From positions 1 through 64,000 of IMG/VR virus record IMGVR_UViG_3300021197_000841: a stretch of 64,000 nucleotides of DNA; one strand, given 5' to 3'. This document shows positions 2,810 through 61,620 of the stretch, piece by piece. The position numbers and the translations under genes are program-made. The number at the start of each line of letters is the position of its first letter. Positions within the stretch are counted from its first letter, which is position 1. The notes below the pieces were generated by a model. The model was not told the DNA's origin. It was given only the letters and a program-made list of their open reading frames with translations, and ran no database searches. Source of the stretch: a virus.

Positions 2810-4442
2810 CTGGATCCCATCCAATACTGCTACCCGACTTCTTCTTATAGTCCGGTTCGTCAGCATATTTTTTATCATCGTAATTATCTTGACTTTCGCC
2901 TGTTTTTCTAGTACGTTGTCTTACTTCTTTAACTTCCACAACACCGTCCTCATCGACTTCTCTGTGAGCAAAAACTTCTACATCACGCAACCCTTTTGGT
3001 TTTTGTATGTCGTCCTCAGGCTGTTCTAATTCAGTAAACGCCAAACTATCATACCATTCCACCATTCTTGGAAATGCTTTTCTAAAATCTAGTCCACGTC
3101 TTTTATCATACTGTTCATAAAATACTCTAAAGTCATGCTCTAGTAGTTCTCTATCAGCAGTATTTCTATGCGGTGTTTTAACAACATCTAAATATTCTAT
3201 TAGCCTAGTTAATTGTTCTTGTTCCCATGGTGCTACAAGATCTTGACCCCATGGATCTTTTTCATCTTTTTCTCTAACACCATTTAACCAGTCTTTAAGT
3301 TCAGTATGATATAATTGTCTTAAATGATCTGGCAATGTTAAAGCACTTTGAAAACTTGGGAAACGTAATATGTTTACACTAAATCTAGGTTTACTTGCCC
3401 CAAACTCTCGCTTCATTCCTAACATCCAATCTAAAAATTCTACTATGCTGTCTAAACATAAAGCATTAATTGTCATCATCATATGAAAGCCTTCCATATT
3501 ACCTTCACGAATCATTATAGCACAATTTTGTTTCCATTCTGACCAATTCAACCCGTCTCTAATGTATTCGCCGCCTAGTCCTGTAGCCTCGCCACTGGAA
3601 TATAAATGAAACTTTTCAACATGCTGAGTTGCTTCTGCTAGTTTTCTAATTAATGCCGGTTTGGCTCCTAGGTTACTGTTAATAGCAAAACGCATAGTCT
3701 TAGCATTAGGATGTATATCTCTATTATCTTTAAACCATTCAAACAGTCCCCATACACTATCACTCATTGTCGGTTCACCACCTGTGATTCTTAGTTCTTC
3801 TAATTCTAAACTTAGTTCAGGCCACCATTCCCAAAATGCTTTTACATAAGGATTTTCTTCATCTTTATCAAACGGATCGGCGTATGGAGCATCATCAATA
3901 AAATGGCCTCTAGCATCAGACTTGATGTTTTCATACCCGCCAAACTTTCTAATATCTTTTACCCATGTACTACTAAATGCTGGATTACAATAACTACATG
4001 CGAATTGGCATGTTCTATCAAACGCAATTTCTAATGTTTTTAAGTTTACATCATCCATTGGATCCATAGTAGCAATTTTTTCTATTTCTTCATCTGAATA
4101 TATAACAGTTTTAAATGTTCTGTCACTTACAGGTCTATGGCCGTCTGAGTCTTTTTCCATATCTTCAATCTTCCAGCAGTACTCACACTCTTTAGGGCGA
4201 GTACCCTCTAACATCATTTGACGCATTTTCTTTTTGTGTCTAGTATTATGTATTGCTGAAGGATTAGTTTTAATTTCTTCTTTGTCTATATTATGTGCCG
4301 GGGGATGGTGACAACTTGCTGTGCCTCCGTGACCTAACCATATAGTTGCGTTAAGCCATTTGGCCGCACAAAACGAATCTGATATAGGATCAATTACCCT
4401 ACTTCTATATTCGTTATCACTTTCATTTGCTTTTCTTGGCAT
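2784..4442 (-). CDS. Radical SAM enzyme with N-terminal Twitch/SPASM-like domain
   Basis: CQFACSYC, ITGGEP, FCAAKW...SCHH...CEYCW; C-terminal YDKRRG motif followed by a charged tail. Confidence 0.9.
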   Translation of the reverse strand: MPRKANESDNEYRSRVIDPISDSFCAAKWLNATIWLGHGGTASCHHPPAHNIDKEEIKTNPSAIHNTRHKKKMRQMMLEGTRPKECEYCWKIEDMEKDSDGHRPVSDRTFKTVIYSDEEIEKIATMDPMDDVNLKTLEIAFDRTCQFACSYCNPAFSSTWVKDIRKFGGYENIKSDARGHFIDDAPYADPFDKDEENPYVKAFWEWWPELSLELEELRITGGEPTMSDSVWGLFEWFKDNRDIHPNAKTMRFAINSNLGAKPALIRKLAEATQHVEKFHLYSSGEATGLGGEYIRDGLNWSEWKQNCAIMIREGNMEGFHMMMTINALCLDSIVEFLDWMLGMKREFGASKPRFSVNILRFPSFQSALTLPDHLRQLYHTELKDWLNGVREKDEKDPWGQDLVAPWEQEQLTRLIEYLDVVKTPHRNTADRELLEHDFRVFYEQYDKRRGLDFRKAFPRMVEWYDSLAFTELEQPEDDIQKPKGLRDVEVFAHREVDEDGVVEVKEVRQRTRKTGESQDNYDDKKYADEPDYKKKSGSSIGWDPDADGLGGQ

Positions 4443-55242: not shown

Positions 55243-56256
55243 ATGACAGATAACTTATTCAAAAAAGCCGCAGTCTTTACAGACATACATTACGGCCTAA
55301 AACAAAATAGTCATCAGCATTTAAAAGACTGTAATAATTTTGTTGACTGGTTTATTGCCGAAGCAAAACTAAGAGAAGCAGAAACATGTTTCTTCTTAGG
55401 CGACTGGCATCATCACAGAGCAAGTATTAATATTGCTACAATGAATGCTAGTTTGAGAGATCTTAAAAAACTAAATGACGCATTTGAAAAAATATATTTC
55501 ATAACCGGCAACCATGATTTATATTACAGAGATAAACGCGAACTTAACAGTATAGAATTTGCTCGTGACTTACCTAACTTTATTATGGTAGATGAGATAT
55601 TTGAAGAAAAAGGTGTATCTATAATACCATGGTTAGTTGGAACAGAACATAAAAAAGTTGCTAAGATCGATTGTAAATATATGTTTGGCCATTTTGAACT
55701 GCCGTTCTTTAAAATGAATGCAATGGTAGAAATGCCAGACCATGGTGGTATTACAGCAAGTATGCTTGACAAACCAGAATATGTTTTTACAGGACATTTT
55801 CATAAACGTCAATACAACCATAACATACATTACATAGGCAATGCGTTTCCGCATAATTACGCAGACGCACAGGATAACGATAGAGGATACATGTTCCTAG
55901 AGTGGGACAAAGAACCGCAATTTGTTAATTGGCCTGACTGCCCTAAGTATGTTACATGCGGTCTAGTAGAACTTATCGATGATCCTGCTAAATTTTTAGG
56001 CGCAACAACGTATGCTAGAATCAAATTAGATGTAGACATCAGTTATGAGGAAGCATCTTTTATTAAAGAAAACTTTATGGACAAATACAAGTGTAGAGAA
56101 ATACAACTTGTACCAGTCAAGGAAGTTGAGGAAGAATACGAAGCAGGCGAAATACATTTCGAAAGTGTCGAACAAATTGTTATCAGTCAATTACAAACGA
56201 TTGAAAGTAGTACCGTAGACACTGATAAACTTATTAACATTTACCAGAACTTATAA
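55243..56256 (+). CDS. gp47: Recombination endonuclease, Mre11/SbcD-like
   Basis: TDIHYG, LGDW, GNHD, GHFE and GHFH metallophosphoesterase motifs. Confidence 0.95.
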   Translation: MTDNLFKKAAVFTDIHYGLKQNSHQHLKDCNNFVDWFIAEAKLREAETCFFLGDWHHHRASINIATMNASLRDLKKLNDAFEKIYFITGNHDLYYRDKRELNSIEFARDLPNFIMVDEIFEEKGVSIIPWLVGTEHKKVAKIDCKYMFGHFELPFFKMNAMVEMPDHGGITASMLDKPEYVFTGHFHKRQYNHNIHYIGNAFPHNYADAQDNDRGYMFLEWDKEPQFVNWPDCPKYVTCGLVELIDDPAKFLGATTYARIKLDVDISYEEASFIKENFMDKYKCREIQLVPVKEVEEEYEAGEIHFESVEQIVISQLQTIESSTVDTDKLINIYQNL

Positions 56257-56257
56257 T

Positions 56258-58030
56258 ATGCTAAACATAAAAAACATCAGTGTGAAGAATTTCATGAGCG
56301 TTGGTAATAACGTTCAAGGTGTTAGATTCGACGACAAACACTTAACACTTGTATTAGGAAACAACCTAGACCTAGGTGGTGACGGTAGCAGAAATGGTAC
56401 AGGCAAGACTACTATTATTAACGCTCTAAGTTATGCGTTATACGGCGAAGCACTAACCAACATTAGACGTGATAATTTAATTAACAAAACAAACGGCAAG
56501 GGCATGATTGTTTCTTGCGACTTTGAACTTAACGGTATAGAGTATCGCATAGAAAGGGGAAGACGTCCTAATGTGTTACGTTTATTTGTTAATGGTACAG
56601 AACAAGAAGATCAAGAACAGCAAGGCGATAGCAGAGAAACACAAAAACAAATAGAAAAAATTATCGGCTTTAGTCATCAAATGTTTAAGCACATTGTTGC
56701 TCTAAATACTTACACAGAACCTTTCCTTGGTATGAAGAATAACGACCAACGAGATATGATAGAACAGTTGTTAGGTATTCAAGAACTTTCGCAAAAAGCA
56801 GAAATTCTAAAAGACAGAATGAAGGACACTAGAGATAATATTAAAGAAGAAGAATTCCGTATTAGTGCTATGAAAGATAGCAATGAGCGTATGGACAAAA
56901 ATATCAAAGAACTAGAAAGTCGTAGCAATGCCTGGGAACGAAACAAGTCTGTTAAACTAAACGAAATGGCTGATGCGTTAGAGCAACTAAAAGAAATTGA
57001 TATTGATCGCGAGGTTGAAAAACATAATACATTAGTTGTTATTAAAGATCACGAAGCAAACTTAAATATATTATCAAACAATTTAACAAACACCCTTAAC
57101 TCTTTTAAAAGAAGTAAAACTAAACTAAGCGAACTAGAGGCTAATTTAGTTAAAGCAAAGGAAGGCGTGTGCCCCACATGTGAACAAGGTACAGCACATT
57201 TAGACACACATGAAGCATACACAAAAGATTTAGAAACCAAGATAGCAGAAGAAAAAGAATACTTCACAGGTTTAACTATTAAAGAAGAAGATTTAAAAGA
57301 TGGCATAGAAACACTAGGACCTGTTGAAGAAAGACCCAGTACGTTTTATAAAACATTAGAAGAAGCACTTACACATCGTAATAATGTTGATAATTTAATA
57401 GACAGCATTAGCACAAAGCACACTGAAGAAAATCCATACATAGAACAAATAGAATCTATGAAACAAAGTGGTATACAAGAAATCAGTTGGGACACAATCA
57501 ACGAACTCACAGCACTAAAAGATCATCAAGAATTTTTATATAAACTACTAACAAGCAAAGACAGTTTTATCAGAAGACGTATTATTGATCAAAACATTGC
57601 TTACTTGAATCACAGATTAGCACACTACTTAGATGCTATTGGCTTACCGCATGACGTTAAATTTAACAGCGACCTAAGTACAGAGATTACAGAATACGGC
57701 AGAGATTTAGACTTCGATAATCTAAGCAGGGGCGAACGTAACAGACTTATACTGAGTTTGAGTTGGGCATTTAGAGATATATTCGAAAGTCTTAATCACC
57801 CAATGAACTTCCTGTGTATCGACGAACTTATTGACAGTGGCTTAGATGCTACAGGTGTCGAGAATGCGTTAGGTATACTTAAGAAAATGAGTAGAGAGCA
57901 GAACAAAAACATTATGCTTATATCACACAGAGAAGAACTAAGTGGCAGAGTTAATGATGTATTGTATGTGATCAAGGAAGGAGGCTTCACTAGTTACAAC
58001 ACGGACACAGAATATGTAGGCGATAAGTGA
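56258..58030 (+). CDS. gp46: Recombination ATPase, Rad50/SbcC-like
   Basis: Walker A NGTGKT, zinc hook CPTC in a coiled coil, signature LSRGE, Walker B LCIDE, ISH. Confidence 0.95.
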   Translation: MLNIKNISVKNFMSVGNNVQGVRFDDKHLTLVLGNNLDLGGDGSRNGTGKTTIINALSYALYGEALTNIRRDNLINKTNGKGMIVSCDFELNGIEYRIERGRRPNVLRLFVNGTEQEDQEQQGDSRETQKQIEKIIGFSHQMFKHIVALNTYTEPFLGMKNNDQRDMIEQLLGIQELSQKAEILKDRMKDTRDNIKEEEFRISAMKDSNERMDKNIKELESRSNAWERNKSVKLNEMADALEQLKEIDIDREVEKHNTLVVIKDHEANLNILSNNLTNTLNSFKRSKTKLSELEANLVKAKEGVCPTCEQGTAHLDTHEAYTKDLETKIAEEKEYFTGLTIKEEDLKDGIETLGPVEERPSTFYKTLEEALTHRNNVDNLIDSISTKHTEENPYIEQIESMKQSGIQEISWDTINELTALKDHQEFLYKLLTSKDSFIRRRIIDQNIAYLNHRLAHYLDAIGLPHDVKFNSDLSTEITEYGRDLDFDNLSRGERNRLILSLSWAFRDIFESLNHPMNFLCIDELIDSGLDATGVENALGILKKMSREQNKNIMLISHREELSGRVNDVLYVIKEGGFTSYNTDTEYVGDK

Positions 58031-58677
58031 GCGGTTGGGAAGGCGATAACACACAACGGCTTATAGAACTTGTAGGCGGTGATGTTCACGAAGACTTCCA
58101 GGCATTAAAGCAACGGTCTATAGATGCTCACAATCTTAGATTTGCAGACTACATAAACACCAGTGATATAGTTCTAGACTTTGGCAGTGGATTAGGCTTT
58201 GGTGCCAACGCATTTGCTGACACCGTATCGCAATACATTTGTGCCGATGTATCTAGATCTATGCTGATGTCCGCACACCAAAATATATCACACCATAGCA
58301 ATATCGAACTTAAACTTATATCACGCAATAATTTGTCTGCTTTAAAAGATTATAAATTTACAAAAATAATTTCACATGCTGTTTTTGTGCACTTAGAAAT
58401 ACCTGAAATAATTTACTATCTAAAACAATTTAAAAACATACTAGCAGACAATGGGGAAGTATTATTTACATACAAAAACTTAGACTTATTAAATGTAAAC
58501 GATCACTTGCTTACAGAACACACAGAAAGACTTATGCGTAATAGAGAATTTCAAACTCGCAGTATAAGTTATGTAAGTCCTACCGTTATTAAGAATGTCG
58601 CAGAGCAATTAGATTATAAGTATATAGAAGTCGAATGCGATGAGTTTGATCGTACAGCGAGATTAATTAATGAGTAA
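58027..58677 (+). CDS. Class I SAM-dependent methyltransferase
   Basis: VLDFGSGLG, ADVSRSML, HAVFVHL; no DNA-MTase catalytic motif (DPPY/NPPY/PC) seen. Confidence 0.8.
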   Translation: MSGWEGDNTQRLIELVGGDVHEDFQALKQRSIDAHNLRFADYINTSDIVLDFGSGLGFGANAFADTVSQYICADVSRSMLMSAHQNISHHSNIELKLISRNNLSALKDYKFTKIISHAVFVHLEIPEIIYYLKQFKNILADNGEVLFTYKNLDLLNVNDHLLTEHTERLMRNREFQTRSISYVSPTVIKNVAEQLDYKYIEVECDEFDRTARLINE

Positions 58678-59095
58678 ATGGTTACACAATGGTAAAGCAA
58701 TAGAATCGCTACCGGAAGATTGCGAAGCATTTGTATATCTTATTACTAATAACACAAATGACAAAAAGTATGTTGGCAAGAAACTAGCAAAGTTTAAAAC
58801 AACCAAACCCCCACTGAAAGGCAAAAAGAACAAACGTAGAGGCACCAAGGAATCAGATTGGCAAACTTACTGGGGCAGTTCAGACAATTTAAAAGAAGAC
58901 GTTTTAGCACTTGGAGAAGATAAATTTACCAGAGAAATTTTATACTTTTGTCCTAGCAGAGGCGTCGCTAGTTACCTAGAGGCTAGAGAACAGTTCGAAA
59001 GAAGAGTACTACTCTCAGATGACTACTACAATGGAATTATCAACGTTCGAGTTGGTGGTTCAAAAATCTTACGTGAAGGTCTCAAAGACCGATAA
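58670..59095 (+). CDS. Stand-alone GIY-YIG (Seg-like) nuclease domain protein
   Basis: AFVYLITN...KKYVGKK, SDWQTYWGS, FTREIL, LEAREQ, YYN. Confidence 0.75.
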   Translation: MSKWLHNGKAIESLPEDCEAFVYLITNNTNDKKYVGKKLAKFKTTKPPLKGKKNKRRGTKESDWQTYWGSSDNLKEDVLALGEDKFTREILYFCPSRGVASYLEAREQFERRVLLSDDYYNGIINVRVGGSKILREGLKDR

Positions 59096-59130
59096 CTAAT
59101 TGCTGAAGAACACAAAAAAACACGGCAAAT

Positions 59131-59600
59131 TCAGACACCAAGTCTAACTCACATTACGGCACACACATAGGACTATACACCCGCCCCAACAGAGGCATTG
59201 AATATCTGGCTCCTCGACAATCCGGCAATGGAAACACCCGGTGCGAGATTATTGGAGATGTATAGCGGCAAAGATACAAACACACGACAAACAGTATTAG
59301 AAGAATGTAGGCACTGAGAAAAAGCAACCTACAAGTTTGTATAACAGAACTCTACAATGTTATACAGACTTCCGTGAGATTCGAGACGGTAGTGTATGGG
59401 GAGAGAAGGCTCACCGCTTCCTAATAGCACCCGAGTTAGAGATGGTAATGGTTCACTTGATGACCCCTTTCATTGTTCTCCTTGCTTAAGGAGAATTATG
59501 GCTCAAGTTACTTGATAACTTTAATCTTAAAAACATTGCAAACAAAAACGATATGAACGAAGTGAATGAAGTTTGTAGTTGGCAAAGACACGAAGTGTCT
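59131..59600 (+). ncRNA. Candidate large structured non-coding RNA (or structured ssDNA/origin element)
   Basis: ~530-nt gap in a gene-dense genome with nested long-range helices (59137-50/59433-46, 59168-72/59419-23, 59173-83/59387-99) and local hairpins (59306-33, 59333-71, 59476-95, 59586-600); G-U pairs and a GAAA loop favour the + strand. Confidence 0.6.
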
Positions 59601-59615
59601 AATAAAGTAAACACA

Positions 59616-59621
59616 TAAATA
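59616..59621 (+). promoter_or_regulatory. Putative late promoter, leaderless
   Basis: CATAAATA-TTAAT-ATG (ATG at 59627). Confidence 0.6.
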
Positions 59622-59626
59622 TTAAT

Positions 59627-60535
59627 ATGATACCAGTACAAGATAATTGGATGCACATAAAAAGTGAATTTATAGATAGTTGTGAGTCTGATATCAACAA
59701 CATACAAAAATTCAAACAACTGGGTTTATTCAAAATGTTATTGCCTACTTCAATGGGTGGTATAGATGGTCACTTACAAGACTTACTGGAATGTCAACTA
59801 CAGTTGAGTCAGCATTGTGTAGACACAGCAAACAAGTATATACGTTGTGCGAGTGCTCCGTATTTGATAAAACAGTTCGGAGAGGAAGTATTCCAAGAAG
59901 TATACGGGCAGGATAACGATGCGTTGGTATTGTTGTACCCCGGAGATCTAGAAACTGCTAGAACTATGACAGTAGAGTCTATATACGATTGGATTATAGT
60001 ACAACATGATGCGGATTACTGTTTGCTTAATGTGGCGGATAGAAATTTTGGGCCGGAGCGGTATGTACTAAGCCTCGACACAATGTACAACAACACACAG
60101 ATACTATCTTGGTTTCAACTGTATAATAGAGTGCTTACAGCAAGTGCTATTGGTAGCCTGGAACATGTATGCCGCATACTGATGAACACCGCTTACAACG
60201 ACTTATACGCAGTCTTAGGCATGGTTTTAAGTGAGGCCGATGAAATGAAACTGGTGTTACACAGGAATATAAACCACGCATTGCTACACATACAGGATGG
60301 TGAACAAATACCTTTATATGATCGTACCAAATACAAGGTACAGAGCACACATTCATATATAAAAGCAGTAAAATACCTGAAAAAAGTCGTTAATTTAACC
60401 GATAACAAAGAGGTTAGGAGTATATATGCTCAGGTTAACTCAATGGATTTAGAGCATTTAAATAACGTTAAACAGGATTATAAGGGGTATATTATGTATC
60501 TTAACAGCAATATACTTGTCGATACATACTTGTAA
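59627..60535 (+). CDS. Divergent acyl-CoA dehydrogenase / flavin monooxygenase-fold protein
   Basis: GLFKMLLPTSMGG N-terminal motif, DWIIV, helical C-terminal ASAIG...; shortened middle domain. Confidence 0.5.
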   Translation: MIPVQDNWMHIKSEFIDSCESDINNIQKFKQLGLFKMLLPTSMGGIDGHLQDLLECQLQLSQHCVDTANKYIRCASAPYLIKQFGEEVFQEVYGQDNDALVLLYPGDLETARTMTVESIYDWIIVQHDADYCLLNVADRNFGPERYVLSLDTMYNNTQILSWFQLYNRVLTASAIGSLEHVCRILMNTAYNDLYAVLGMVLSEADEMKLVLHRNINHALLHIQDGEQIPLYDRTKYKVQSTHSYIKAVKYLKKVVNLTDNKEVRSIYAQVNSMDLEHLNNVKQDYKGYIMYLNSNILVDTYL

Positions 60536-60787
60536 TTACATTTGTTCTTGTTTCATTTGATTTTTACCGCCCGGATTCTTTGCCGCTACATACTCTTCAA
60601 ATGTTTCTATTAGTAATAATCTATCTTCGGAATCGATGCCCCAAGCATCTTCCATTCGTACGGAGCCTTCGCTGAAAATAACTAATTCGAACACATTCTT
60701 TGTGATCGCTTTAGATTGCTCTTTTAAGGCTCCTAGGTAGTTCCTGATATCTTCAGGCTCTGCTCTATCTAGGAAGTTAAGAAAAAA
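60536..60787 (-). CDS. -1 frame extension of the gp26-like gene (83 codons, no start of its own), absent from the ORF track
   Basis: Open frame FFLNFLDRAEPEDIRNYL...EDAWGIDSEDRLLLIETFEE...QEQM* begins at slippery T TTT TTC; in-frame TGA six codons upstream. Confidence 0.75.
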   Translation of the reverse strand, partial: FFLNFLDRAEPEDIRNYLGALKEQSKAITKNVFELVIFSEGSVRMEDAWGIDSEDRLLLIETFEEYVAAKNPGGKNQMKQEQM

Positions 60788-61620
60788 GTTACTGGGTCGA
60801 AGTCAATTGGTACTTCGTATTCTGCGTTGCACTCGGCACATGCTGTTTTGTGTACTTTATTAATACCACCATTATTAATACTGCTAACAGCATTATCAAT
60901 TTCTTTGCCTAATGTTGATTCAATGTTGTCTACAAAGTCGACAATCTCTTCGTATTCATCAACTACCACATCACTATCTGGTATTTTAATATATCTAATA
61001 CTGTTTACAAGTACACCGTAATTAAATTGTGCTAATTTTTCAAAAGCAATACCAATATCAGCAATTCTTTCGTCTTCGCTTTCAAAATCCTCATTGCTTA
61101 TTTTAGCCAATTTATTTGCTTGTTCCAGCATTGCTTTGGCAGTTTTAATACTATACAAATAATTTGCTGGACGTATTCCAATTTCCAAACCATTTGATAA
61201 TGTAAATTCGCTTAATGATTTAATTTCTTCAAAGTCTTGTACAGCAAGACCAAGATCCATATCAAATGAATTTTCATGCCCACATTCTGGACAATCACGA
61301 TCTACTGTTAATGTGCGATCTTTTTCAGAAGCGGCTCTTACTGCTACTAAAATTAACTCCATATCCGGCGCAATAATTTCCGCAGGTTTTTTAATAGTTG
61401 GTACACAACTTTCGATGACTTTGAGAACAGCATCACCATTAAGTAATGCGTCAGGGTTTCTGACGATAAGTTCGTCTTTTGGTGTCATTGCTAATACAGG
61501 TAATTCGCCGCTTTCCGGCCAATCAATAACGTCATCGTCATAAAATTTACCGCCCGACGGCAACTGTATGTATAACTTAGGGGACCTATAAAAGTCTTTA
61601 AGTGCTTGTTTGTTTGTCAT
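60769..61620 (-). CDS. Baseplate hub / tail assembly chaperone (T4 gp26-like)
   Basis: YIQLPSGG..Y, MTPKDEL, PDALLNG, CPECG and CAEC zinc pairs, C-terminal DFDPVTFF. Confidence 0.75.
   Translation of the reverse strand: MTNKQALKDFYRSPKLYIQLPSGGKFYDDDVIDWPESGELPVLAMTPKDELIVRNPDALLNGDAVLKVIESCVPTIKKPAEIIAPDMELILVAVRAASEKDRTLTVDRDCPECGHENSFDMDLGLAVQDFEEIKSLSEFTLSNGLEIGIRPANYLYSIKTAKAMLEQANKLAKISNEDFESEDERIADIGIAFEKLAQFNYGVLVNSIRYIKIPDSDVVVDEYEEIVDFVDNIESTLGKEIDNAVSSINNGGINKVHKTACAECNAEYEVPIDFDPVTFFLTS

What the first reader, a model, noticed from the sequence alone, without database searches (positions are those of the whole stretch)
59096..59615. Candidate novel large structured ncRNA downstream of a minimal GIY-YIG nuclease
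Seen: the only long gap in the window folds into nested helices. The outer helix is ACCA-AG-TCTAACTC (59137-50) with GAGTTAGA-GA-TGGT (59433-46), 4+8 bp around a tandem purine mismatch. Inside are TAGGA/TCCTA (59168-72/59419-23) and CTATACAC-CCG/CGG-TA-GTGTATGG (59173-83/59387-99). Inner arms: CTCC-TCG..CCGG..TG-GAAA-CA..CCGG..CGAG..GGAG (59210-57), TGTAT/ATACA (59259-78), TGTAGG/CCTACA (59306-33) and a 14-bp stem with one G-U (59333-71). 3' hairpins: TTCTCCTT-GCTT-AAGGAGAA (59476-95), AAGTTA/TAACTT (59505-21) and AGACAC-GAA-GTGTCT (59586-600). It matches no tRNA, tmRNA, RNase P or intron consensus I recognise. The upstream 141-aa GIY-YIG lacks the DNA-binding modules of homing endonucleases, and I see no terminator between them. 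Inference: a ~310-470-nt RNA co-transcribed with the nuclease, possibly its RNP partner or guide scaffold, or a ribozyme. An alternative is a replication origin or primer RNA beside the recombination genes.
Basis: partly seen in the sequence, partly recalled or inferred. Interest (0 to 1): 0.85.

Follow-up and report, generated by a model that had tools for sequence, protein, structure and literature searches.

The report
Twin-box knotted RNA beside phage nuclease
The gene-free stretch behind a small nuclease gene of this uncultured marine T4-like phage encodes a real, intricately folded RNA of about 450-500 bases that is in no RNA catalogue, is shared by well over a hundred related phages, and has a job that is still unknown.

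Summary
The 531-nt ORF-free gap (59096-59626) is real and encodes, on the + strand, a large structured non-coding RNA. In 70 diverged copies, 78 base pairs in 14 helices, two of them pseudoknots, are paired in 98.3% of cells. Fifty-two pairs show compensatory changes (0 of 500 shuffles as high). Its outer closing helix and four others are no better than shuffles. The folding energy of the single sequence is weak evidence (z -2.09 and -1.03).

No Rfam family matches. The RNA is under purifying selection: 78% identity against 54% at third codon positions of the neighbouring gene.

It always lies 3' of a 141-aa SegE-type GIY-YIG gene, in 101 of 101 copies with room and in 59 of 59 loci chosen by gp46 alone. 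The pair lies between gp46 and a baseplate gene, in either orientation.

Two 13-nt boxes inside the RNA stay identical to each other while changing between lineages.

Function is unknown. I read it as a trans-acting folded RNA. A role as the nuclease's partner is possible but not shown.

This scan has reported the same 'twin-box' RNA on other phage DNA many times. A proposed link to Polynucleobacter-1 (RF01718) was not reproduced here.

The parts
58670..59095 (+). 141-aa SegE-type GIY-YIG nuclease gene, catalytic domain only. It is the constant upstream neighbour of the RNA.
   Evidence: Pfam PF19835 E 9.7e-33, residues 4-124. PHROG 447 E 7.6e-36. Present upstream of the RNA in 101 of 101 copies with room.
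59091..59106 (+). Conserved 5' box GATAACTAATTGCTGA. It holds the nuclease stop codon. It stays with the RNA when other genes are inserted between the two.
   Evidence: T14 A15 A16 A19 are invariant in A1. In L003 and L004 the box lies after the inserted antisense ORFs, at the RNA's 5' edge.
59107..59165 (+). C/A-rich variable leader with short repeated words (CAGACACCAAGTC / AAGGCACA types). No conserved pairing.
Evidence: Alignment A1 columns 20-120.
59173..59265 (+). 5' domain. Helix Hm (59173-79/59259-65) closes a junction that holds hairpin Ha (59190-93/59205-08) and the arm TCC/GGA (59211-13/59254-56) + CCGG/CCGG (59222-25/59238-41). The arm is capped in this copy by a GAAA loop (59231-34).
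   Evidence: Hm: 6 bp paired in 66 of 66 rows, 3 pairs with compensatory types. Ha: 4 of 4 pairs covary. TCC/GGA: 2 of 3. CCGG: 2 of 4.
59273..59298 (+). Hairpin Hc, GATAC/GTATT.
   Evidence: 100% paired. 2 of 5 pairs have a change on both sides, in 1 and 3 of the 70 sequences, so support is weak.
59306..59370 (+). Hairpins Hd (59306-11/59328-33) and He (59334-46/59358-70).
   Evidence: Hd: 3 of 6 pairs compensatory. He: 12-13 of 13 pairs compensatory.
59350..59441 (+). Pseudoknot 1. The He loop CTCT (59350-53) pairs with AGAG (59438-41).
   Evidence: 100% paired, 4 of 4 pairs with compensatory changes.
59374..59433 (+). Pseudoknot 2 and the long hairpin. GTGAG (59374-78) pairs with CTCAC (59410-14), which lies in the loop of the stem CGG/CCG (59387-89/59431-33), GTGT/GCAC (59392-95/59427-30), GGGGAG/CTTCCT (59398-403/59417-22). 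An internal loop UAUGG/CCUAAUAG resembles a tetraloop receptor (a recalled motif, not tested).
   Evidence: 100% paired. 3 of 5 pairs are compensatory for the pseudoknot, 3 of 7 and 3 of 6 for the stems.
59451..59519 (+). Twin-box module. R1 GTTCACTTGATGAC (59451-64), hairpin Hj (59476-82/59489-95), R2 GTT-ACTTGATAAC (59507-19).
   Evidence: Same-base covariation of R1 and R2 gives the top two corrected mutual-information pairs of the whole alignment. It also holds in distant homologues. Hj: 3 of 7 pairs compensatory.
59536..59600 (+). 3' trailer. Long irregular hairpin Hk (59536-43/59578-85) and terminal hairpin Hl (59586-91/59595-600). Conservation ends after 59600.
   Evidence: Hk: 7 of 8 pairs compensatory. 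Hl: 4 of 6. Flanks diverge after Hl.

Best explanation
Window 59091-59600 (+) is the gene of a non-coding RNA of about 430-510 nt from an uncatalogued family, the 'twin-box' RNA. I put the odds that it is a real, selected, structured RNA at about 0.95.

Shown:
- Selection preserves the fold, not just the letters.
- The RNA has a CA-rich leader, a 5' junction domain, a hairpin, a 3' core locked by two pseudoknots, a module that shows the same 13-nt word twice on either side of a hairpin, and a hairpin trailer.
- The RNA and the SegE-type GIY-YIG gene directly upstream form a two-gene block.
- The block is fixed in a clade of uncultured marine T4-like phages, between gp46 and a baseplate gene. 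It occurs in either orientation and is reshuffled among phage backbones.

Inferred, and my committed reading at about 0.45: the RNA is a gene in its own right. It acts in trans as a compact folded particle, and its two identical boxes are read by one external partner. That partner could be a dimeric protein or two copies of one nucleic-acid site. On this reading the nuclease gene is a permanent neighbour, kept adjacent because the two lie in one small recombination-prone block. It is not an obligatory partner.
For: Structure. 78 pairs in 14 helices on 70 sequences (under 97% identical to each other; 70 of 86 full-length distinct copies, of 107 distinct copies found) are 98.3% paired. 52 pairs have changes on both sides. 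0 of 500 shuffles reach any of the five measures. Slid controls are 34-45% paired. The 3' core alone: 41 pairs, 98.7% paired, 29 compensatory. Helix Hm is paired in 66 of 66 rows.

Strand. Invariant or common G-U pairs (for example columns 382/400 GU in 70 of 70, and 379/403 GU in 60) fit only the + strand.

Selection. Mean pairwise identity of the RNA core is 0.78. Codon positions 1, 2 and 3 of the adjacent gene are at 0.82, 0.89 and 0.54 (3240 pairs of 81 loci). There is no conserved ORF.

The nuclease does not need this RNA:
- Proteins 70-85% identical to the window's stand beside small ORFs, not an RNA. This holds for groups D and E (9 of 80 loci), which show no gp46, gp47 or baseplate match nearby, and for Melnitz, where the gene follows nrdB with only a 150-nt gap.
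- Cyanophage homologues have no gap after the gene.
- The protein stays 76-85% identical while the RNA diverges beyond BLAST range (groups B, F) or has its centre replaced (group C).

No special co-descent. Spearman GIY-RNA is 0.34, GIY-gp46 0.41 and RNA-gp46 0.27. Box columns show no association with nuclease residues (ranks 55-155 of 187).

Separable. In about 10 of 101 copies, 0.55-1.5 kb of other genes lie between the two. These are antisense ORFs of about 170 aa with no Pfam match, or an IMPDH-like gene.

Presence in RNA libraries. Contigs from 4 runs of 4 studies lie on the element. This is weak evidence, because DNA carry-over is not excluded.
Against: The linkage to the nuclease gene is absolute in what I could sample. 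All 101 copies with room have it upstream on the same strand, mostly within 5 nt of its stop codon. All 59 loci picked by gp46 alone carry both. I saw no RNA without the nuclease gene.

The pair keeps its internal order in both orientations relative to the flanks. Near-identical RNAs sit in both arrangements. That also fits a functional module.

The nuclease has no DNA-binding domain and carries a Lys/Arg-rich loop.

No transcript ends, promoter or terminator are established. No partner for the twin boxes was found.

Single-sequence folding energy is not clearly better than shuffles.
Confidence: 0.45

Rival explanations
1. The RNA is the partner of the GIY-YIG nuclease in a ribonucleoprotein. 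It supplies the nucleic-acid recognition that the domain-only enzyme lacks, as a scaffold, activator or guide. The twin boxes or a flanking segment would pair with the target.
For: Absolute co-occurrence and same-strand adjacency: 101 of 101 and 59 of 59. The order nuclease then RNA is kept in both orientations and in distant groups B, C and F. The protein is a bare catalytic domain with a basic loop. The two identical 13-nt words evolve fast between lineages, as guides would.
Against: Close homologues of the protein (70-85% identical) exist without the RNA. The protein is almost invariant while the RNA's centre is replaced or diverges. Nuclease residues do not co-vary with box columns. No complement or extra copy of the box was found in the RNA or in the 64-kb window beyond chance: 16 matches against 14.1 expected. 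Antisense genes lie between the two in some phages. No paper on an RNA-guided GIY-YIG enzyme came up in the one search made (listing and abstracts only).
Confidence: 0.27
2. It is a cis-acting end-of-operon element. It would be a long structured 3' untranslated region that stabilises, processes or terminates the gp47-gp46-nuclease transcript at the point where it meets the convergent structural genes.
For: It lies at a convergent junction after the last gene of a rightward block. The C/A-rich unstructured leader comes right after the stop codon. RNA-library contigs bridge the gene/RNA boundary (58679-59181) and the 3' boundary (59118-59662).
Against: About 400 nt with two covarying pseudoknots and twin boxes is far more than a stabiliser or terminator needs. 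No terminator-like site was found. The element keeps its own 5' box when antisense genes separate it from the nuclease gene. In 33 loci the block is inverted, so its upstream neighbour is a baseplate-family gene.
Confidence: 0.1
3. It is a ribozyme or the relic of a self-splicing intron of the kind that carries GIY-YIG homing endonucleases in T-even phages.
For: It has pseudoknotted, GNRA-capped, receptor-like architecture next to a GIY-YIG gene. That T-even phages carry group I introns with such genes is recalled knowledge, not tested here.
Against: No group I, group II, RNase P or small-ribozyme model of Rfam matches, even at E up to 10 on 231-901 nt. There is no split host gene: the flanks are separate genes and fall into 4 different downstream types. 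No contig with the element spliced out was seen (table 5).
Confidence: 0.07
4. It is a replication element: an origin with iteron-like leader repeats, or a structured primer RNA beside the recombination genes.
For: It lies next to gp46/gp47. Short words are repeated in the leader.
Against: The constraint is on RNA base pairs, including strand-specific G-U pairs, not on DNA words. The leader repeats differ between close relatives and are not enriched elsewhere in the window: 11 matches against 11.1 expected. No origin-specific test was possible.
Confidence: 0.04

Closest known systems
GOLLD (RF01998) and ROOL (RF03087), large ornate RNAs often carried by phages and prophages
   Same: Several hundred nucleotides long, many helices with pseudoknots, phage-borne, abundant in environmental sequence, no known function. 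That comparison rests on recalled knowledge plus the abstract of bioRxiv 10.1101/2024.12.08.627333 seen in the listing.
   Different: Neither Rfam model matches. This RNA is fixed next to one particular gene and carries twin identical boxes. No evidence for multimeric assemblies was sought or found.
HEARO/omega RNA with IscB and reRNA with TnpB (nuclease-associated RNAs)
   Same: A structured RNA encoded directly beside a small nuclease gene, on the same strand. For TnpB the RNA also lies at the 3' end of the gene. This is recalled, with the reviews listed seen only as listing and abstracts.
   Different: The nuclease fold here is GIY-YIG, not RuvC or HNH. No transposon ends, no guide adjacent to an element boundary, and no target match were found. 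The same nuclease family occurs without the RNA.
Free-standing Seg (GIY-YIG) endonuclease genes of T4, for example segB inside the tRNA gene cluster
   Same: A small free-standing GIY-YIG gene of a T4-like phage sits next to structured-RNA genes, in a region with mosaic inheritance. The T4 details are recalled.
   Different: T4 Seg proteins carry a C-terminal DNA-binding part and are sporadic. This gene is catalytic domain only and is fixed: 59 of 59.
Polynucleobacter-1 RNA motif (Rfam RF01718; listed in Weinberg et al. 2010, PMC2864571, table entry read)
   Same: Earlier notes of this scan on freshwater phages say that the first third of their twin-box RNA matches this motif. It is an orphan motif from freshwater and estuarine sequence.
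   Different: Not reproduced here. RF01718 gives no match in the window at E up to 10 or in L033. It gives none in 5 and 50 related viral records, or in 16 further loci at E up to 0.5. No positive control was available, so a distant relationship is neither shown nor excluded.
Candidate structured RNAs mined from IMG/VR (PMC10690425)
   Same: That work used the same data source (intergenic regions of IMG/VR contigs) and a covariation-based screen. Passages were read.
   Different: Its 8495 candidates are 29-151 nt long. No full-length description was found.

Membership tests
Any Rfam 15 family (4227 models) | Score at or above the family's gathering threshold | tested here: not met
   0 matches in the whole window. 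At E up to 10 on 58900-59800 there were only six chance-level hits, the best being SNORD111 at 20.3 bits against 46, E 1.1. 0 matches on 59090-59320.
Group I intron | Match to the conserved core (P3-P8, P4-P6, guanosine-binding P7), as modelled by Rfam | tested here: not met
   No hit at E up to 10.
Group I intron | Interrupts a host gene whose two halves flank it; spliced junction in RNA | tested here: not met
   Upstream there is a complete nuclease ORF. The downstream flanks fall into 4 unrelated types. No contig joins across the element (table 5). Contigs cannot prove absence.
Polynucleobacter-1 (RF01718) | Match to the 141-position covariance model (gathering score 37 bits) | tested here: not met
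   No match in the window's record at E up to 10, in 55 related records, or in 17 loci by cmscan. No positive control.
GOLLD / ROOL | Match to RF01998 or RF03087 | tested here: not met
   Both are part of the Rfam scans. No hit.
Guide RNA of an RNA-guided nuclease (omega RNA / reRNA type) | A variable segment complementary to the nuclease's DNA target, next to a conserved scaffold | tested here: inconclusive
   The twin boxes vary between lineages. No complementary or identical site beyond chance was found in the RNA or in the 64-kb window. Complete genomes of phage and host are lacking.
Guide RNA of an RNA-guided nuclease (omega RNA / reRNA type) | Physical complex of RNA and nuclease; RNA-dependent cleavage | not testable with these tools
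   Needs biochemistry.
SegE-type GIY-YIG proteins (Pfam PF19835 / phrog_447), for the neighbouring gene | Match to the family profile over the catalytic domain | tested here: met
   PF19835 E 9.7e-33, profile positions 1-123 of 123. phrog_447 E 7.6e-36.
Box C/D RNA | C box RUGAUGA paired with D box CUGA in a kink-turn, twice | tested here: not met
   R1 contains UGAUGA in this copy. No D box follows it, and the word is AGAUAAUG or ACAUGAAG in homologues. snoRNA models score far below threshold.

The most novel reading that the evidence does not exclude
The twin-box RNA is the nucleic-acid-recognition subunit of the domain-only GIY-YIG enzyme. The two identical, fast-evolving 13-nt boxes would act as paired guides, or as guide and decoy. 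They would direct the nuclease to a lineage-specific DNA or RNA site. This would be the first RNA-guided GIY-YIG nuclease, fixed in a large clade of ocean phages.
Probability: 0.1. Interest if true: 0.95.

Novelty: new variant of a known kind. Interest (0 to 1): 0.7.

Why it matters
Large, multiply pseudoknotted RNAs are rare. Those already explained are ribozymes or RNP cores, and the rest (OLE, GOLLD, ROOL, raiA) are open problems.

This one is abundant in marine metagenomes. Twenty of the 24 runs listed, from 11 studies, hold the stretch or a part of it. More than 100 distinct copies were found in viral contigs. It is under selection as strong as a protein's first codon positions. It also has an unusual, testable signature: two boxes that are kept identical to each other.

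It gives RNA structural biology a new target, and it gives phage biology a conserved non-protein gene of uncultured T4-like ocean phages. If it works with the neighbouring nuclease, it would open a new class of RNA-dependent nucleases.

Tried and rejected

2. Hidden protein gene or decayed C-terminal nuclease domain: no conserved frame in about 40 copies. Rejected.

3. Known RNA families: Rfam at gathering and at E up to 10 found nothing. ARAGORN found nothing.

4. Cultured phages:
- blastn of the region and of a divergent copy against 50,697 phage records found only the nuclease gene of four Melnitz records.
- Model R1 found nothing in the whole genomes of Melnitz, P-SSM2 and S-B05. There was no positive control among those three.

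5. Cellular genomes: one pattern scan gave 2 hits (Syntrophales and Acidobacteria MAGs). Model R1 did not confirm either, and I take them as chance matches. The claim in earlier scan notes that the RNA occurs in bacterial islands without the nuclease could therefore not be checked.

6. Polynucleobacter-1 lead: not reproduced. The tool itself warns that an empty answer shows nothing.

7. Partner of the twin boxes:
- No covarying complement inside the RNA.
- Partial complements at about 59560 in some subtypes only.
- Local hairpin and palindrome models fit some variants (CATG, TCGA) but not others (CTTG, CGTG).
- No extra copies in the window.
- No association with nuclease residues. A high normalised MI of a few other RNA columns with residue 71 looks like a subclade marker.

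8. Leader words as genome-wide motifs: at chance level.

9. Promoter and terminator scans: 3 promoter-like sites against 3.8 expected, and 0 terminators. Nothing usable.

10. RNA-library contigs:
- Summed contig depth in run X15 is 66-129 over 59160-59471 against 0-14 on the flanking bins. The tool states that contig depth cannot rank genes and that it sums relatives, so I do not use it as evidence of high expression.
- Bins without cover are not interpreted.
- A contig of X18 begins at 59118 directly after adapter letters. That is one observation, not a mapped 5' end.

11. Empty site: none among 59 gp46-selected loci, so the borders of a mobile unit could not be read off.

12. Alignment of the 5' domain by MAFFT misplaces 13 short-type sequences. 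I therefore counted helix Hm with a script anchored on invariant letters. For the TCC/GGA arm I relied on A1.

13. Rows dropped: A1 uses 70 of 86 full-length distinct copies (those under 97% identical). One search uses 70 distinct of 104 loci that had all three genes. In the tree the neighbour type was inferred from baseplate orientation where gp46 was off the locus. One such locus (L172) has baseplate-like genes on both sides.
Full report
WHAT IS THERE

The window is part of a 72-kb IMG/VR contig of an uncultured marine T4-like phage. The local gene order is:
- a possible gp55 (my guess from position; no Pfam match)
- gp47 (55243-56256)
- gp46 (56258-58030)
- a methyltransferase (58027-58677)
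- a 141-aa protein (58670-59095)
- a 531-nt gap (59096-59626)
- an unknown 302-aa ORF
- a convergent T4-baseplate-family gene (60769-61620)

The 141-aa protein is a single SegE_GIY-YIG domain. The gap is the only long stretch of the window without an ORF. The one other stretch free of ORFs of 90 aa or more holds ORFs of 89 and 68 aa.

IS IT MORE THAN CHANCE?

Single-sequence folding energy says little. The z-score is -2.09 for the 531 nt on the + strand, -0.84 on the - strand, and -1.03 for the 436-nt core.

Comparative evidence is decisive:
- blastn and an nhmmer profile found the gap sequence in 107 distinct copies among 204 loci fetched from viral contigs. Those loci were collected through the nuclease protein, the downstream ORF, or a DNA pattern inside the element.
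- No reading frame is conserved.
- Mean pairwise identity of the element core is 0.78. Codon positions 1, 2 and 3 of the neighbouring gene are at 0.82, 0.89 and 0.54. The element is therefore constrained about as strongly as first codon positions.

THE FOLD

I aligned 70 copies that are under 97% identical to each other, with mean pairwise identity 66%. RNAalifold predicted 71 pairs, 45 with compensatory changes. A scan of all column pairs and inspection by eye added two pseudoknots and one closing helix.

The final set has 14 helices and 78 pairs. It is paired in 98.3% of 5414 cells, and 52 pairs have changes on both sides. No shuffle out of 500 reaches any of the five measures. Partners slid by 1-3 columns give 34-45% pairing. 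The 3' core aligned alone gives the same picture: 41 pairs, 98.7% paired, 29 compensatory.

In window coordinates:
- Conserved 5' box: 59091-59106.
- CA-rich variable leader: to about 59165.
- Helix Hm, 59173-79/59259-65. It closes a junction with hairpin Ha (59190-93/59205-08) and the arm 59211-13/59254-56 + 59222-25/59238-41.
- Hairpin Hc: 59273-77/59294-98.
- Hd: 59306-11/59328-33.
- He: 59334-46/59358-70.
- Pseudoknot 1: the He loop 59350-53 with 59438-41.
- Pseudoknot 2: 59374-78 with 59410-14. The latter lies in the loop of the three-part stem 59387-89/59431-33, 59392-95/59427-30 and 59398-403/59417-22.
- Box R1: 59451-64.
- Hairpin Hj: 59476-82/59489-95.
- Box R2: 59507-19.
- Trailer hairpins Hk (59536-43/59578-85) and Hl (59586-91/59595-600).

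Optional GNRA-capped stem extensions appear and disappear between copies. Frequent conserved G-U pairs show that the + strand is the RNA.

Six of its elements are confirmed:
- the CTCC/GGAG stem
- the CCGG/CCGG stem
- TGTAGG/CCTACA
- the long stem
- TTCTCCT/AGGAGAA
- AGACAC/GTGTCT

Five are not: the outer helix, TAGGA/TCCTA, CTATACAC-CCG/CGG-TA-GTGTATGG, TGTAT/ATACA and AAGTTA/TAACTT. Together these are 77.8% paired against 77.6% in shuffles, with no excess covariation. Their strands have other, covarying partners.

AN UNEXPLAINED FEATURE

R1 and R2 are direct repeats of about 13 nt. They are identical to each other apart from one extra C and one fixed G/A difference. They differ between lineages at six or more positions.

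These same-base pairs are the top two of all corrected mutual-information pairs in the alignment, and several more box pairs rank in the top 30. The same holds in distant homologues with quite different words.

I found no complementary partner inside the RNA. I found no extra copy in the window and no link to nuclease residues. Each box follows the 3' strand of a helix and an AUGG-containing linker, so the module looks internally duplicated.

The simplest reading is that one external reader sees the same word twice.

CONTEXT

All 101 distinct copies with enough upstream sequence have the GIY-YIG gene upstream on the same strand. In most, the RNA's first conserved box contains the gene's stop codon. 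In about 10, other genes of 0.55-1.5 kb are inserted: antisense ORFs of about 170 aa with no Pfam match, or an IMPDH-like gene plus a 142-aa ORF.

Of 80 loci chosen only by gp46 similarity (67-100% identity), 59 have at least 1100 nt downstream. All 59 carry both genes. In 2 of them the pair is inverted.

In 33 of 135 loci the upstream neighbour is a baseplate-family gene and gp46 lies convergent downstream. That is, the pair is inverted as a unit. On a tree of 86 RNA copies this arrangement label needs 7-9 changes, of which 4-6 are forced by well-supported branches.

Pairwise identities of nuclease, RNA and gp46 correlate only weakly: Spearman 0.27-0.41. The region is a recombination mosaic, and the nuclease and RNA do not share more history with each other than with gp46.

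WIDER FAMILY

Almost all of the 80 closest nuclease loci have a 400-900-nt ORF-free stretch after the gene. These stretches fall into at least six sequence groups.
- Groups B and F, and part of C, come from phages whose gp46 is only about 52% identical. They are distant homologues of the window's RNA. Covariance model R1 gives E 2e-8 to 5e-4 for ten loci. They share blocks, hairpin Hj and twin boxes.
- Part of group C shares only the leader and trailer and has a different centre.
- Groups D and E show no gp46, gp47 or baseplate match nearby and have small ORFs instead.

The nuclease proteins of all groups, and of Methylophilales phage Melnitz, are 70-85% identical. In Melnitz the gene follows nrdB with only a 150-nt gap. 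Cyanophage homologues (about 40% identical) have no gap. So the protein family does not depend on this RNA. I never saw the RNA without the protein gene.

EXPRESSION

Twenty of the 24 public runs listed, from 11 studies, hold the stretch or a part of it. Six of them are RNA libraries.

Contigs of four RNA runs from four studies lie on the element. One bridges the nuclease/RNA border and one bridges the 3' border. No contig skips the element. These are contigs, and DNA carry-over is possible. This shows presence in RNA libraries and nothing more.

WHAT IT IS NOT
- No Rfam family matches, at gathering or at permissive thresholds.
- There is no tRNA or tmRNA.
- It is absent from 50,697 phage records by blastn.
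- The only two pattern hits in 185,579 cellular genomes were not confirmed by model R1, and I take them as chance matches.

EARLIER NOTES OF THIS SCAN

After my own analysis I looked these up. The same 'twin-box' RNA has been reported on other phage DNA many times: 119 notes in at least 111 genomes match the search words.

My results agree with those notes on three points: the double pseudoknot, the twin boxes and the constant nuclease neighbour.

Some notes add two claims. One is that in freshwater phages the first third matches the Rfam motif Polynucleobacter-1. The other is that nuclease-free copies sit in bacterial islands. I could not reproduce the first on this window or on 72 related records and loci. 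I could not test the second. I do not use either as evidence.

MECHANISM
- Shown: a selected, doubly pseudoknotted + strand RNA, fixed beside the nuclease gene.
- Inferred: it acts through its three-dimensional shape, in trans, and presents one word twice to a partner.
- Open: whether that partner is the neighbouring nuclease.

The protein's independence of the RNA elsewhere, its near-invariance while the RNA changes, the lack of special co-descent and the intervening genes all speak for a gene in its own right (about 0.45). The absolute linkage, the preserved order in both orientations and the bare catalytic domain keep the RNP reading alive (about 0.27). Within that, an RNA-guided nuclease stands at about 0.1. 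A cis-acting operon end (0.10), a ribozyme or intron relic (0.07) and a replication element (0.04) are less likely.

NOVELTY AND SCORE

The family is not in Rfam 15. I found no description in three literature searches or in the passages read from PMC9602691, PMC2864571 and PMC10690425. Short pieces may be among the 29-151-nt candidates of PMC10690425, whose supplements I could not open.

It is a new family within the known kind 'large ornate phage-borne RNAs of unknown function'. Interest is 0.7.

Noticed in passing
window 59451-59464 and 59507-59519: Two direct-repeat boxes inside the RNA stay identical to each other in every lineage while differing between lineages. No partner was found. The mechanism that keeps them alike is unexplained.
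   Followed up: partly
L003 1402-1923 (-); L004 2349-2858 and 2908-3426 (-): One or two antisense ORFs of about 170 aa have been inserted exactly between the nuclease stop codon and the RNA's 5' box in some relatives. They look to me like 2OG-Fe(II)-oxygenase-type proteins, but Pfam gave no match.
   Followed up: partly
L163 4122-5153 (+): An IMPDH/GMP-reductase-family gene (Pfam E 2.4e-72) and a 142-aa ORF lie between the nuclease gene and the RNA in one relative. This is an auxiliary nucleotide-metabolism gene at this hot spot.
   Followed up: no
window 58027-58677: A SAM-dependent methyltransferase gene lies between gp46 and the nuclease gene in this phage. Of the relatives sampled, only two others have it (L235, L238). 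This is another insertion at the same junction.
   Followed up: partly
L016 about 3510-3900 and relatives (group C): These copies share the leader and the 3' trailer hairpins with the window's RNA. Their central roughly 400 nt are unrelated in sequence and match no Rfam family. This may be a second structured RNA in the same frame.
   Followed up: partly
L172 (IMG/VR contig, 13.9-kb locus): The nuclease-RNA pair is flanked on both sides by T4-baseplate-family genes, and gp46 is absent from the locus. This is a third arrangement of the block.
   Followed up: no
window 59133-59145 and 59586-59600: The small leader hairpin AGAC-ACCAA-GTCT resembles the terminal hairpin AGACAC-GAA-GTGTCT, so both ends of the element carry similar stem-loops. 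Group C copies carry the leader word twice.
   Followed up: no
nuclease genes of all groups (for example window 58670-59095 against L033, L071): The GIY-YIG protein is 76-85% identical between phages whose gp46 is only about 52% identical. It is either unusually constrained or exchanged horizontally.
   Followed up: partly
window 59627-60535: A 302-aa ORF with no Pfam or PHROG match lies between the RNA and the baseplate gene. It is present in only 28 of 136 loci.
   Followed up: no
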